This document shows positions 5,980 through 59,930 of a stretch of 64,000 bases of DNA, piece by piece. The stretch spans positions 31,124,001-31,188,000 of the forward strand of contig OX597822.1 in the NCBI GenBank assembly GCA_951406725.2, read 5' to 3'. Numbering within the stretch: position 1 is the stretch's first letter; every line of letters begins with the position of its first letter. The notes below the pieces were generated by a model, which saw nothing but the letters and a program-made list of their open reading frames with translations, did not search any database and was not told where the DNA came from. Position numbers and translations under genes: made by a program. Origin of the DNA: Octopus vulgaris (lineage: Eukaryota).

Positions 5980-6441
<462 letters not shown>

Positions 6442-6444
6442 ATA

Positions 6445-6770
6445 TAATTATATTAAAGTGTGTGGATAAAACCCACCAGCACGCTAGAAATAGATGCTAA
6501 ATTGCTCTAAACAACACCTCTACAGTCCGTTAGCACAGGTTGTGAGCCGAAGAATAAGATTTTTTAAAAACAAATGGTTTATATCTTTCGATTTCTGGCT
6601 TAGGGTTGTAAAACACTTTGCTGTCATTAGCATAATATCCCATAGGATATAAATGCAAATCTCTATACACACCCGAGCATTTTGAGGAACCTGAATCCTG
6701 TTTTGTTTTCTTATGCCTTTAGGTTCTAGACTATATTTTCTCACCACCTCTTTTGAACATCGCAATTAAA
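6445..6770 (-). mobile_element. Decayed PLE GIY-YIG C-terminus and 3' tail running into (TA)n
   Basis: GIRKQNRIQVPQNARVCIEIC...KSKDINHLFLKNLILRL resembles the PLE endonuclease end (HxQQI...E.YFI..F.P.LN), by eye. Confidence 0.45.
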
Positions 6771-28549: not shown

Positions 28550-29190
28550 GAAAGTGTGGTGAATGTTCCTGAATGTCTTGGGTGAACTGTAAATATAATA
28601 TCATTTGCATAATATTGGTGGAATATTTTCCACATGGTGCAAATAATGTATCGCTCACGGCGGCGTTGCAGAGGATAGAGCTTCAGCTGTTTAAGTCGAG
28701 CCCAGTAATCAAGTCCCATCATGCCATTTATCTTTTTTGATGGATCTTTGTGACGCTTCGATCCTCATTATGCCTTGTTTTTTGTAAGGGGACCACAATG
28801 GGTAGCAGTATTCGAGGTGGAGACTAGCGAATGTGGAAGAGAGAAGGATGATAGTTTCATGATCCCTAGATTGGAATGTTCTGAGGATCCATGAACACCT
28901 TCTGCGGGCAACATCGACATTTTTGTTGATGTGCACGCTCCAACAAAGATTGCTGTCGAAAGTTACATCTAAGTCTCTGATATTATCCGACGGTTCAAGT
29001 AGGTCTTCTGACGGTAGTGTATATGATTGTTTGAGTGTGCCCTCTTTTCCAAAGTGGATGAGCTCAAATTTTTCTTCATACAACTGCATATTGTTTTGTA
29101 CCCACTGGGTTACTACGCATAGGTCCGATTGAAGGCGCTTAATGAATTTCTGGAGCTTAGAGTCATCTGCAAATATTGTTATGGTGTTAT
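28550..29190 (-). mobile_element. CR1-like LINE reverse transcriptase 3' fragment
   Basis: IFADDSKL...LQSDL...RDLDVTFDSNLCWSVHI...LEYCYPLWSPY; DYWARLKQLKLYPLQRRRERY. Confidence 0.92.
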
Positions 29191-29266
<76 letters not shown>

Positions 29267-30922: not shown

Positions 30923-31494
30923 CAATGTCATTTATCGGAATTTAACATGCGTTTCTTAATATTTACAAATTTTAGCGTTAAAAATGCATTCATGTCAAAT
31001 TGCACGTTTTATAGTATACGGACATATCTATTTATGCGTGTATATCAACGCACACATACAGGCATATATGGATATATGTACATATTCATATTTATGCTTG
31101 CATTCGCATATACATCAACGCACACACACAAGCGTATATGCATATATGTACATATGCATATTTACGCTTGCATACACATCTATGTACATACACATATGTA
31201 TACATATCTATCTACATACATGCATGTGTGTATGTTTGTAGATATATATGTATTTATATATATATGGATGCAACGTTTTCATAACAAATTGCTGTATTTA
31301 CAGATATTACGAGTGGAAGTCAGAAAAAACGTAGGTGTAACAGACGAATCAGATTTTATCTGAAATCTATCTATACCTGGGCGGTAAGAGTGGCACCTTG
31401 GGCAAGTCTCTGCTATTATATCCCCAGGTCAACCAAAGCCTTGTGAGTGGATTTGGTAGACAGAGACTGAAAGAAGCTCGTCGTATATATGTAA

Positions 31495-31534
<40 letters not shown>

Positions 31535-31569
31535 GGGTGTGTGTGATTGTGTATAGAAGATTATATTAA

Positions 31570-31925
31570 TTATTTACAATCTTATAATGATATAATATTA
31601 TATAATATAATAAAATAAAATAAAATAATAGAATGTTAAATGTTCATTCTGATTGAACTAGTACTTTCATGCATTAAATTCTGCAATCTTCAGGTTCATT
31701 TAGCAGTGGTGATAGTCATGCTTCACAGTTTTTGACTGTCTTTTTTTTTCACAGTCAAAAATTGTGAAGCATGACTGCCACCACTACTACATGAACATGA
31801 AGATTGCAGAATATAATGTATGAAAGTACTAGTTCAATCAGAATGAACATTTAACATTCTATTATTTTATTTTATTTTATTATATTATATTATATTATAT
31901 TATATCATTATAAGATTGTAAATAA
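31570..31925. mobile_element. Fold-back element (~170-bp arms) with a hammerhead on each strand
   Basis: Arms 31570-31739 and 31751-31925; HHR motifs at 31654-31698 (-) and 31792-31836 (+). Confidence 0.9.
31654..31698 (-). ncRNA. Minimal type I hammerhead with intact core
   Basis: TGAAC-CTGAAGA-T-TGCA-GAATTTAA-TGCA-T-GAAA-GTAC-TA-GTTCA; palindromic stem III AGTACT, CUA triplet. Confidence 0.85.
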
Positions 31926-31959
31926 AACGTAAAAATCAGACAAGGTTGGAACTCCTTTA

Positions 31960-32002
<43 letters not shown>

Positions 32003-32574
32003 TATATATATATGTATGCATGTATGTATGTATGTATGTATGTATGTATGTATGTATGTATGTATGTATGTATATCTGTGTTTCTGTTTGTTCCCCCACC
32101 ATCATCTGACAACCGACGCAGGAGTGTTTACCTCCTCATAGTGGTTCGGCATAAAAACCGATGAAATAAGTACTAGGCTTACAAAGAATAAGTCATGGGG
32201 CTGATTTGTTCGACTAAATGCGGTGCTCCAGCATGGCCCCAATTAAACGACTGAAGCAAGTAAAGAATAAAAGAATATAATGAACAATAAGATATAAAGG
32301 CACTGAGTATTGGTGGACTATATAAAGTGTACCAAAAAAAAAAAAAAAGAAAGAAAAAGTATATCTTCTAAAATAAATAAAAAATAGTCGTAGGGCAGGA
32401 AATTTAGTATTCAAGTATTTGAAGATAATTGATGGAATTATTACGAATGAGGTCCAAATTTAATAAATGAGTAGACAAATATATGAAAACTATAATACCT
32501 AATATTATCGCTAAATCTTTGGTACATGACAGAAAATTTTTAGCAAATCGATATAGTTTGCGCAGACATATATA

Positions 32575-35318: not shown

Positions 35319-35400
35319 CATACACTCACACAAATATATATATATGTATATATATATATTTAAAAAGAGAGATGTGGAACACGAGTTGTGATATATAAAG

Positions 35401-35680
35401 AAAGGAAATGAAGAAAATGCTGACAAAATGATTTAAGTAAGGGAGAGTGTATTTAATTAGGTGAAAGTTCTTACCGGTTGCGCATTTGTTATGCTTATCA
35501 AAAGATATTTTTTAAGAGAGATAGAGTTCCTTTCTGATAGATTTTTCTAGGAACTCTATCTCTCTTAAAAAAATATATTTTGATAAGCATAACAAATGCG
35601 CAACCGGTAAGAACTTTCACCTAATTAAATACACTCTCCCTTACTTAAATCATTTTGTCAGCATTTTCTTCCTTTCCTTT
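35401..35680. mobile_element. Fold-back element (~130-bp arms) with a variant hammerhead on each strand
   Basis: Arms 35401-35531 and 35549-35680 nearly identical; TTGATAA/GCAA motif at 35468-35503 (-) and 35576-35613 (+). Confidence 0.9.
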
Positions 35681-35683
35681 ATA

Positions 35684-35761
<78 letters not shown>

Positions 35762-39735: not shown

Positions 39736-39786
<51 letters not shown>

Positions 39787-39865
39787 TATATTAAATTAGA
39801 GTTAAAACCACTATTAGGCAAATCATACAATGAAAAACTTAAGCCAATACATAAGATTAATTAAT

Positions 39866-40127
39866 TTATATTATTTTAAATATATATCAAAATTATTATA
39901 AAAAGATAATTAGTATAACACTACGATCGTTTCATGGCTGTCCAATTCGAGTTACAGTCATTCTTCAGGTGATTGAAATATTTAACTTGGCGAGGTTTAA
40001 TCAATGTTAAATATTTCAATCACCTGAAGAATGACTGTAACTCGAATTGGACAGCCATGAAATGATCGTAGTGTTATACTAATTATCTTTTTTTAATAAT
40101 TTTTGATAAATATTTAAAATGATATAA
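39866..40127. mobile_element. Fold-back element (~120-bp arms) with a hammerhead on each strand
   Basis: Arms 39866-39986 and 40006-40127; HHR motifs at 39919-39971 (-) and 40021-40073 (+); (TA)n at ~39737 and ~40208. Confidence 0.9.
39919..39971 (-). ncRNA. Minimal type I hammerhead with intact core
   Basis: CAC-CTGAAGA-ATGACTGT...ACAGCCAT-GAAAC-GATC-GTA-GTG; palindromic stem III ACGATCGT, GUA triplet. Confidence 0.85.
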
Positions 40128-40254
40128 TATTTTACTATAAAATTGGATTCAATCCTAAATCTGATTTTTCCCTGTAAGTTTGGATTTATTCCCTAATATT
40201 TTATTATATATATATACTCATATATATATATATATGAGTATATATATGTATATA

Positions 40255-40654
40255 CGCAGGAGTGGCTGTGTGGTAAGTAGCTTGTTTACAAACCACGTGG
40301 TTCTGGGTTCAGTCCCACTGCGTGGCACCATGGGCAAGTGTCTTCTACTATAGCTTCGGGCCGACCAAAGCCTTGTGAGTGGGTTTGGTAGACGGAAACT
40401 GCAAGAAGCCCGTCGTATATATGTATATATATATATATATGCGTGTGTGTGTGTGTCAGTGTGTGTCCCCCTAGCATTGCTTGACAACCGATGCTGGTGT
40501 GTTTATGTCCCCGTTACTTAGCGGTTCGGTAAAAGAGACCGATAGAATAAGTACTGGGCTTGCAAAAGAATAAGTCCCGAGTTGCTCGATTAAAGGCGGT
40601 GCTCCAGCATGGCCGCAGTCAAATGACTGAAACAAGTAAAAGAGTAAAAGAGTA
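40255..40654 (+). mobile_element. Family A SINE, full length
   Basis: Collinear with 506-934. Confidence 0.92.
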
Positions 40655-58759: not shown

Positions 58760-59420
58760 TTGGTGAAGTAGCGAGTTGGACTGAGCTGCACTTCTTTGCC
58801 TCTCCTGCCGCGATGTGGGTTCATCTAGTATCTCAGATAGAAACCTGCCCAAACTTTCCTTGAAAATTTCCGCATCAACACCATGTAGATCTCCAAGGTT
58901 GCTTGGAAAGATGTTAAAAAAAATGCGGGCCCTTGAAACCCAGACTATTGCAGTTCTGTGTCTTTATTTTAGGTGGGGAAGACAGGATCTTTGGTATGAT
59001 GCAGTGCGGTCGAGTTTGATGACTGGTAGAGCTGTCAATTCTAAAATTGGGAATTAAATTCTCCAATATCTTCCAAATATATATCGCCGCATATCTCTCA
59101 CAACTTCTATCCAGGGAATAGAGACTCAGTTCTTTTAGCCTCTCCCAGTGGCCCACCTTTCGCATTGAGATAATCCTCTTTGTGTATTGGCACTGGATTG
59201 CTTCGAGTTCATTGTGTATTGACACTGGATTGCTTCGAGTTACTTCACACTCTCTGGGGTTCATAGTGGGGAGTAGTAGTCCAAGCAGCTGAGAACGAAA
59301 GTCTTTGGTAGGAGTAGCAAGGCCTTCTTTTTCCGATCCAGGGCTTTTTCTTGGTTTTGAATGTCCTCGGAATCCACCCAGCCACTCGCCTACACAGTGT
59401 TGCCATCTTGGTAATATGCA
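58760..59420 (-). mobile_element. CR1-like LINE 3' fragment
   Basis: ELEAIQCQYTKRIISMRKVGHWERLKELSLYSLDRSCERYAAIYIWKILENLIPNF; RRVAGWIPRTFKT. Confidence 0.88.
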
Positions 59421-59930
59421 CATGGAATGTGCACATATGCTTCCCCAAATTCCATTTACAAGACCGTTGTAAACGGCGGAATACAGCTAAAGGCGATGAA
59501 GTAAGAAACCATTGACTACTGTGCCGTGCTTGTGATTGAACCCGGAGGTACATCTTTGCGAAATGATACTTCATACACATAACCGTGCGTGCACCCTAAA
59601 GTACATCTGACACCTCAAAATGCTATGTGTCCTAGCCGAACTGAAACTGGGAGTGGCTTTTATCATTTTCGAATCTAAGAGAAATGAGTAATTGCAAGGC
59701 AATCTTTGTCCATTTGTCAAAGTATCTAATCATTCTACTTGTGTACGGGGCAGTAAGTCATTATAAATGACTCGGCGCCAGAATTATTACTGTGCAGAAT
59801 TTAGTATATTCCCTCAACATTTTTAATTAAATATTTATTTTGATGATATTGCTTTTCTTTCGCTGAGAGATCCATGAAAGTATTAATAGTACATTCAGTT
59901 ATATGGAAAGTATGACCAGGGAATAAATCA

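What the first reader, a model, noticed from the sequence alone, without database searches (positions are those of the whole stretch)
39866..40127. Second, unrelated two-polarity hammerhead palindrome with an intact core
Seen: ~120-bp arms and a 19-nt loop. The minus arm reads CAC-CTGAAGA-stem II-GAAAC-GATC-GTA-GTG; the plus arm differs by one C-to-T change in stem III. Different non-palindromic extensions lead to (TA)n on each side. The geometry matches 31570 and 35401 (fold point shortly upstream of the HHR) despite no sequence similarity. Inference: a shared mechanism in which cDNA folds back soon after the ribozyme is copied.
Basis: partly seen in the sequence, partly recalled or inferred. 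Interest (0 to 1): 0.72.

Follow-up and report, generated by a model that had tools for sequence, protein, structure and literature searches.

The report
Twin-primed spliced Penelope retrotransposon stub
This mirror-image DNA is two short, intron-less copies of the front end of a common Penelope-type jumping gene joined head to head, likely made when both cut DNA strands each copied the same spliced RNA from two fixed start points, and not by the new DNA folding back at the ribozyme.

Summary
The palindrome and both hammerhead cores are real. It is one head-to-head insertion, in (TA)n, of the terminal repeat of an abundant Hydra-clade Penelope-like element (4,469 exact hits to one 35-mer). Both arms lack the parent's 817-nt GT-AG intron. 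The centre lies near the ribozyme because spliced copies end there, at a predicted transcription start 39 nt upstream of the hammerhead. Simple fold-back is not supported, since each arm holds sequence that the other lacks. In two pattern-drawn samples, 52 of 52 classifiable two-armed insertions pair one tailed with one tail-less outer end (1 exception in 17 palindrome-selected loci). Arms agree in splice state (13 of 13) and at subfamily sites (292 of 312). This fits twin priming from both nicked strands at two RT start sites on one RNA. The window's other two palindromes follow the same rule. A second pile-up of 5' ends begins at the predicted ribozyme cut site, which hints at cleavage in vivo. 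The architecture is published; I did not find the mechanism in print. This scan has reported it before, in other genomes and in this one.

The parts
39737..39780 (.). (TA)n target, left side
39778..40006 (-). Tail-less arm: spliced pLTR copy from outer end A (+200/+204, counted from the CAC of hammerhead stem I = 0) to -35, 4 nt short of the predicted transcription start (-39). The outer end is ambiguous by about 4 nt with TA.
   Evidence: alignment to intron-bearing copy L075
39919..39971 (-). Type I minimal hammerhead, intact core CUGAAGA/GAAA, palindromic helix III (CGAUCG); predicted cut between 39922 and 39921
   Evidence: cleavage untested
39982..40006 (-). Exon 1 of the element joined directly to exon 2 (817-nt GT..AG intron absent). 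39987-40005 is the 'loop', exon 1 sequence present only in this arm.
40006..40207 (+). Tailed arm: spliced pLTR copy from -15 to outer end B (+280), with an 84-nt internal deletion after 40118; 1-nt overlap with the other arm at 40006
40021..40073 (+). Second hammerhead copy, C>T at 40063 (stem III U-G); predicted cut between 40070 and 40071
40127..40207 (+). ~80-nt 'tail' between the two family-wide 3' end sites
40205..40254 (.). (TA)n target, right side
31570..31960 (.). Sister palindrome of an unrelated hammerhead family: tail on the left arm only (tail part at about 31534-31566), centre at the family's common 5' end
35360..35690 (.). Sister palindrome of a third family with variant core UUGAUAA..GCAA: tail on the left arm only

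Best explanation
This is a head-to-head pair of short, spliced copies of the terminal repeat (pLTR) of a Hydra-clade Penelope-like retrotransposon in a (TA)n tract, likely built by twin priming on one RNA. Shown: the parent element (RT and GIY-YIG motifs), exact loss of its 817-nt GT-AG intron in both arms, two fixed outer ends 80 nt apart with one arm at each, independent inner ends, short overlaps at the joint, and arms that match in splice state and subfamily. Inferred: the RT-endonuclease (a predicted dimer in the Anolis relative) nicks both strands of (TA)n. Each 3'-OH primes reverse transcription on the same sense RNA, one at site B (tail) and one at site A. Both cDNAs run toward the RNA's 5' end, the trailing one displacing the leading one, and their 3' ends are joined by microhomology. 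Because priming is internal, the ordinary spliced mRNA gives only a ~240-320-nt stub that ends at the transcription start about 40 nt upstream of the hammerhead. This would be why the centre sits next to the ribozyme. This copy came from an uncut RNA; RNAs cut by the hammerhead would give a second class of copies that begin just after the cut site and lack the ribozyme.
For: One end of each kind: 34 of 34 classifiable among 41 two-armed loci in 80 hammerhead-anchored loci (17 AB, 17 BA, 0 AA, 0 BB; L092 and L093 look like duplicates). A second sample of 88 loci anchored near the 3' end gave 18 of 18 new classifiable cases. Sister families: 6 of 6 two-armed loci (31570 family), and 14 of 14 inverted partners of tail-less arms carry the tail (35401 family); both counted by eye. 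Arms that stand alone end at the same two sites (28 A, 11 B of 39), so both behave as start sites. The tail-less arm reaches further 5' in 16 cases, the tailed arm in 14, equal in 4. Tail-only inverted arms stop at +198, +204 and +205, next to site A (L089, L055, L220). Joint overlap of 1-12 nt in 29 of 41. Splice state of the arms: 8 spliced/spliced, 5 unspliced/unspliced, 0 mixed; subfamily-diagnostic sites agree 292 of 312 against 170 expected if independent. The intron is kept in 29 of 30 copies that extend upstream into the 3' UTR (read by eye), while of 67 classifiable anchored arms 49 are spliced. Published biochemistry: the Anolis PLE protein nicks and extends both strands, starts RT at two internal sites that bracket the tail, and is predicted to be a dimer (PMC11167929).
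Against: No enzyme or intermediate was observed; all steps are read from genomic products. Similar arms could also come from two RNAs of one source locus or from later gene conversion between arms. L010 carries the tail on both arms (1 of 17 palindrome-selected loci). Seven of 41 two-armed loci have an outer end at neither site, and four loci (L047, L057, L058, L103) have inverted pieces that reach no start site and could be true snap-backs. Twelve of 41 joints have 0-25 extra bases instead of an overlap. Two RTs on one RNA need strand displacement, which is untested for PLE RT. The transcription start is inferred from the pile-up of ends and from TATA/Inr-like motifs; a cap-derived G appears in only 3 of 11 arms that reach it (one more is ambiguous). 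The cut-site pile-up lies in AT-rich sequence, the test and control sets differ in subfamily mix, and exact (TA)5-to-cut-site joins are rare genome-wide (11 against 1,355 uncut).
Confidence: 0.75

Rival explanations
1. Two-ended priming, but each subunit of the dimer copies its own RNA molecule, usually from the same source locus.
For: It needs no strand displacement. L010 has two tails.
Against: 0 of 13 pairs with mixed splice state, although both RNA forms are used; 292 of 312 diagnostic sites agree; the strict A+B pairing and the tail-only arms that stop at site A fit one shared template better.
Confidence: 0.1
2. cDNA fold-back or self-priming (the first reader's model; Arkhipova et al. 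2013 proposed self-priming, possibly on an antisense template): one cDNA hairpins at its 3' end and copies itself back.
For: Explains identical arms and shared private variants, such as the 12-nt stem II deletion in both arms here. Centres often have AT-rich self-complementary bits. L047, L057, L058 and L103 may be real cases.
Against: Non-nested arms here and in 16 of 34 loci; arms with no shared sequence; the short arm ends at the same site as solitary copies; intron loss shows a sense template.
Confidence: 0.05
3. Fold-back at the template's 5' end gives a perfect palindrome, and later centre deletions remove either side and create the asymmetric loops.
For: Long perfect palindromes are known to lose their centres (recalled, no call). 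The centres of the copies can nearly all be drawn as deletions of one palindrome around -36. This copy has had at least one later-looking deletion (84 nt).
Against: It does not explain why the second strand would always stop at site A. Copies with 0 differences between arms (L031, L049, L086, L104) already have asymmetric centres, and some joints carry templated insertions instead of deletions (L074, L085).
Confidence: 0.07
4. The palindrome is itself a mobile unit (MITE-like or two-polarity ribozyme element) that is copied whole.
For: Many palindromic copies of similar size exist.
Against: Centres differ from locus to locus apart from evident duplicates; about half of the hammerhead-bearing loci are single-armed (39 of 80); spliced copies lack the upstream promoter-like motifs; a coding parent supplies every part.
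Confidence: 0.03

Closest known systems
Hydra clade of C-terminal EN+ Penelope-like elements (Craig et al. 2021, PMC8557442), incl. Hydra-1_Obim
   Same: RxxWK, DKT, CxCx5C linker, CxxC and CxH in the EN, (TA)n target, hammerhead in the pLTR.
   Different: Not Hydra-1_Obim: the protein and hammerhead differ, and two peptide motifs gave 0 hits in the supplement. The unit is about 5 kb against 'generally <3 kb'. It has an 817-nt pLTR intron and an ~80-nt tail.
Inverted pLTR with one-sided tail of EN+ PLEs (Adineta Pen2a, PMC3846280; D. virilis Penelope, PMC2377424)
   Same: Head-to-head inverted 5'-truncated copy, tail at one end, TATA/Inr-like motifs and a 5' intron in the pLTR.
   Different: The tail is described as 30-40 bp and optional, the intron as retained, and the inversion as self-priming, possibly on antisense RNA. 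Here the tail is paired strictly with a tail-less end and most short hammerhead-bearing copies are spliced.
PAc (Poseidon of Anolis; Frangieh et al. 2024, PMC11167929)
   Same: Two internal RT start sites bracketing the tail, AT-rich target, both strands nicked and extended.
   Different: There the start sites lie inside the ORF; here they lie upstream of it (ORF starts about 60 nt after the tail). In the parts I read, the paper does not link the two sites to inverted copies and found no RNA reads ending at the hammerhead cut.
L1 twin priming (Ostertag and Kazazian 2001, seen only as described in PMC9148063)
   Same: Both target ends prime on one RNA and give an inverted segment.
   Different: In L1 the second site is not fixed and the two segments are largely non-overlapping (recalled). 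Here both sites are fixed and the segments usually overlap, which gives palindromes.
Animal non-LTR retrozymes (PMC7229834; bioRxiv 10.64898/2026.07.22.740005)
   Same: Type I hammerhead, PLE-derived, non-coding.
   Different: Retrozymes are head-to-tail tandem arrays. This is a head-to-head truncation product of a coding element.

Membership tests
EN+ Penelope-like element | Single ORF with RT and C-terminal GIY-YIG endonuclease in the parent | tested here: met
   Motifs read in L141, L144, L153 (all broken by frameshifts or stops) and aligned with homologues P0001/P0002. Pfam gave no significant hit.
EN+ Penelope-like element | pLTRs flanking the ORF, carrying a hammerhead | tested here: met
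   L141 and L144 have the hammerhead-bearing repeat before and after the ORF.
EN+ Penelope-like element | Inverted 5'-truncated copy and one-sided tail | tested here: met
   41 of 80 loci two-armed; the tail is ~80 nt, longer than the published 30-40.
EN+ Penelope-like element | Target-site duplication | tested here: inconclusive
   Both flanks are (TA)n, so a duplication cannot be told.
EN+ Penelope-like element | Intron retained after retrotransposition | tested here: not met
   This copy and 49 of 67 classifiable anchored arms are spliced. It is met in long copies, 29 of 30.
Hydra clade | RWK motif, DKT in place of DKG | tested here: met
   RIKWK and SDKT in L141/L144.
Hydra clade | CxCx5C linker; CxxC and CxH in the EN | tested here: met
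   CTCRDKSKC, CYLC, CRH.
Hydra clade | (TA)n insertion preference | tested here: met
   Outer ends abut (TA)n in nearly all of 80 loci.
Hydra clade | Generally shorter than 3 kb | tested here: not met
   Hammerhead-to-hammerhead distance is 4,967 in L141 and 4,842 in L144; the paper gives this as a tendency only.
Hydra clade | Phylogenetic placement of the RT | not tested
   No tree was built.
Minimal type I hammerhead of metazoan PLEs | CUGANGA and GAAA core, NUH cut site, helices I and II, short palindromic helix III | tested here: met
   110 of 110 cells paired in 10 distinct copies, but only 1 compensatory change (91 of 500 shuffles as high). The hammerhead fold is not the minimum-energy fold of one arm.
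Minimal type I hammerhead of metazoan PLEs | Self-cleavage (as dimer or protein-assisted) | not testable with these tools
   Indirect only: 29 of 57 arms stop within -2..+24 of the cut, 3 in the 53 nt upstream.
Non-LTR retrozyme | Head-to-tail tandem monomers each with a hammerhead | tested here: not met
   Head-to-head pair; coding parent.
MITE / fold-back DNA element | Identical terminal inverted ends and a fixed internal structure among copies | tested here: not met
   The two ends differ by rule and the centres differ by locus.

The most novel reading that the evidence does not exclude
EN+ Penelope-like elements integrate by an obligatory two-site twin priming: one enzyme complex primes both nicked strands at two fixed sites on one sense RNA. 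This single rule yields the tail, the inverted pLTR and the palindromic stubs. The inner ends record three template classes: spliced mRNA ending at the transcription start, unspliced read-through RNA (the only source of promoter-bearing, intron-retaining copies), and RNA cut by the hammerhead in vivo.
Probability: 0.55. Interest if true: 0.78.

Novelty: new member of a known kind. Interest (0 to 1): 0.52.

Why it matters
The element and its architecture are of a known kind, but its copies bear on three questions that the PLE literature leaves open (PMC8557442, PMC3846280, PMC11167929). How do inverted pLTRs and tails form? Why do PLEs seem to keep their introns, and is the template sense or antisense? 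Does the hammerhead cut in vivo? Spliced copies show a sense template. The strict tail/no-tail pairing gives a sharp prediction for the existing in vitro system. The edge of 5' ends at the cut site is a genomic hint of cleavage.

Tried and rejected
Rfam scan of the window listed no hammerhead among the 150 of 197 matches shown; they were microRNA-type matches to simple repeats and hairpins. Folding one arm did not give the hammerhead as the best fold (z about +1). Pfam did not recognise the parent's ORF pieces. A homologue search (longer proteins only) returned 2 unnamed proteins. My first idea, a fixed perfect apex with later centre deletions, was dropped once the pattern-drawn sample showed the apex to be the end of the spliced template. 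I first took the parent for Neptune and changed to Hydra after checking motifs. The BLAST mapping was too noisy with TA repeats and was replaced by anchored alignments. The 5' ends were mis-mapped for a longer subfamily (false pile-up at +81) and were redone against a panel (one search was a script error). Sequencing runs: no RNA holder listed. Contigs of 4 runs showed the 817-nt skip with GT-AG ends in one contig, which cannot be told from a genomic spliced copy. Covariation support for the hammerhead was not significant. The cap-G signal was too weak to use. A sequence look-up of earlier scan notes found nothing. No host protein-coding exon was evident among 46 open frames of 110 aa or more (short exons would be missed).

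Full report
Observation. The arms span 39866-39986 and 40006-40127 around a 19-nt loop, with 4 substitutions and 1 indel between them. Both carry a type I hammerhead with CUGAAGA and GAAA cores and a palindromic helix III. The plus arm has C>T at 40063, which leaves a U-G pair. My descriptor found only these two motifs in 64 kb. The window lies in a 2.8-Gb, 227-contig genome; earlier scan notes on the same genome call it octopus, which I did not test.

It is a family member. The palindrome had 1,513 first-look candidates. A 20-mer of the core had 587 exact hits and a 35-mer near the 3' end 4,469, with 0 for the reversed controls. I fetched 80 loci covering most of the first 100 listed core hits (six listed places on C3 were not fetched) and mapped them on a long natural copy, L075. 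Coordinates count from the CAC of stem I.

The parent. Long copies extend into a unit of about 5 kb: pLTR, ORF, 3' UTR, pLTR (L141, L144, L153). [quoted passage not shown] They have RxxWK, DKT, CxCx5C, CxxC and CxH, which Craig et al. give as Hydra-clade marks (PMC8557442 section 11). It is not Hydra-1_Obim (supplement passages). Pfam did not recognise it and no tree was built.

Why the centre is near the ribozyme. In long copies a short exon is followed by GTATGT, an 817-nt AT-rich intron ending in TTTTAG, and then the hammerhead 10 nt later. Both window arms carry the exact exon-exon junction. Of 80 anchored arms, 49 are spliced, 18 unspliced and 13 too short to tell. Of 61 spliced arms (anchors and partners), 47 end between -29 and -42 and 3 reach further. 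The 24 unspliced arms end anywhere from -19 to the end of the reference. Position -39 is the A of an initiator-like TTAGTT with TATA-like motifs about 29 and 39 nt upstream (consensus recalled). Of 30 copies that extend into the 3' UTR, 29 keep the intron (read by eye; the script's labels misread three rows and left four more open). The centre therefore marks the end of the spliced template. The transcription start itself is inferred.

How the two arms arise. Outer ends fall at two sites, A (+200) and B (+280, the tail). Of 80 loci, 41 are two-armed and 39 single. Single arms end at A (28) or B (11). Of the 41, 34 have both outer ends at A or B, and all 34 are one A plus one B; the other 7 are interrupted, deleted or end elsewhere. 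A second sample anchored near the 3' end (88 loci from the first 100 hits) gave 23 two-armed loci, 22 classifiable and all A+B, of which 18 were new. In the palindrome-selected set, 16 of 17 have one tail and L010 has two. Inner ends are independent: the tail-less arm reaches further 5' in 16, the tailed arm in 14, equal in 4. In the window copy the tail-less arm runs to -35 and the tailed arm to -15, so neither can be a copy of the other. Tail-only inverted arms stop at +198, +204 and +205, beside site A. Joints overlap by 1-12 nt in 29 of 41. Arms agree in splice state in 13 of 13 informative pairs and at 292 of 312 diagnostic sites, against 170 expected; several of the 20 disagreements lie in a poly-T stretch that aligns poorly. 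Frangieh et al. showed that a PLE protein nicks and extends both strands and starts RT at two sites bracketing the tail, and predicted a dimer (PMC11167929, parts 1-2 of 4 read). Together this points to twin priming on one sense RNA, with microhomology joining of the two cDNA ends. I reached this reading, before consulting earlier scan notes.

The other two palindromes. The 31570 family (30 best hits) has a ~35-nt tail, 6 of 6 two-armed loci pair tail with no tail, and many 5' ends fall at one point about 30 nt below a TATTTAA. In the 35401 family (30 best hits), all 14 inverted partners of tail-less arms carry a ~45-nt tail, and 5' ends gather about 30 nt below a TATAAGA; its core is the variant UUGAUAA...GCAA. 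These are best-scoring hits, counted by eye, and the queries selected full-length arms. I did not look for their coding parents.

Role of the ribozyme. Following a lead from earlier notes, I mapped 5' ends around the predicted cut. Of 88 arms, 57 reach the block just after the cut: 29 stop within -2..+24 of it, 3 in the next 53 nt upstream, and 25 go further. Partners of hammerhead-bearing arms, whose template would be uncut, stop 4 against 7 in the same windows (Fisher p = 0.0009). This suggests that cut RNAs also serve as templates. Against it: the block is AT-rich, subfamilies differ between the two sets, and exact (TA)5-to-cut joins number 11 against 1,355 uncut. The window copy keeps both ribozymes, so it came from uncut RNA. 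The hammerhead fold is not the best fold of one arm, in line with the low, dimer-dependent activity reported for PLE hammerheads (PMC4209133 passages).

What is known. Inverted pLTRs with an optional one-sided tail, microsatellite targets and hammerheads in pLTRs are published (PMC8557442 passages; PMC3846280 passages). Arkhipova et al. 2013 proposed self-priming, possibly on an antisense template, to explain head-to-head repeats and intron retention, and left the question open. Schostak et al. report that most Penelope transcripts are spliced (PMC2377424 passages), and Craig et al. call PLEs unusual in retaining introns after retrotransposition. Twin priming is known for L1 (passage in PMC9148063). 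I found no paper applying it to PLEs or reporting spliced PLE copies (searches; listings only, apart from the papers named). The library lacks subscription journals, including the 2003, 2005 and 2006 PLE papers, and figures of the supplements of PMC11167929 were not visible. I read part 1 of 5 of bioRxiv 10.64898/2026.07.22.740005. The scan's own notes report twin priming in at least 6 genomes, and spliced stubs in this genome; these are unreviewed and are not independent support.

Verdict. The feature is real and is a new member of a known kind. The interest lies in the family statistics, which make the open steps of PLE integration testable. Confidence in twin priming on one RNA 0.75; interest 0.52.

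Noticed in passing
window 40256-40640; also 31380-31480 and 32080-32270: Copies of an abundant SINE-like repeat sit directly beyond the (TA)n flanks, and the same repeat interrupts some pLTR copies (L093, L108, L153).
   Followed up: no
window 35560-35620 and loci L185-L214: Family-wide variant hammerhead core UUGAUAA...GCAA (U3-A8 pair and A13C), conserved across the 30 hits read.
   Followed up: partly
L043:sense +100..+300; L221, L233, L241 and others: A longer subfamily has an extended stem II and an AT-rich insert with an internal TA run between the hammerhead and site A; it is common in the 3'-anchored sample.
   Followed up: partly
L100, centre of insertion: About 55 nt of unrelated GC-rich sequence is captured between a tail-only inverted arm and the sense arm.
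   Followed up: no
L074, L085, L109 centres: Joints with short templated duplications, resembling polymerase-theta end joining (recalled).
   Followed up: no
L141/L144/L153 ORF: A long asparagine/lysine-rich stretch lies after the RT thumb, as in homologues P0001/P0002; N-rich inserts are described for Adineta PLEs (PMC3846280).
   Followed up: no
L006 and L007; L092 and L093: Pairs of loci with shared flanks or near-identical junctions, likely segmental duplicates.
   Followed up: no
window 28709-29263 and 58914-59486 (minus): Decayed fragments resembling the C-terminal part of a LINE reverse transcriptase (by eye).
   Followed up: no
window 5982-6446: The 180-nt 'perfect' inverted repeat at 5985-6344 is only a 465-nt (TA)n tract.
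   Followed up: yes
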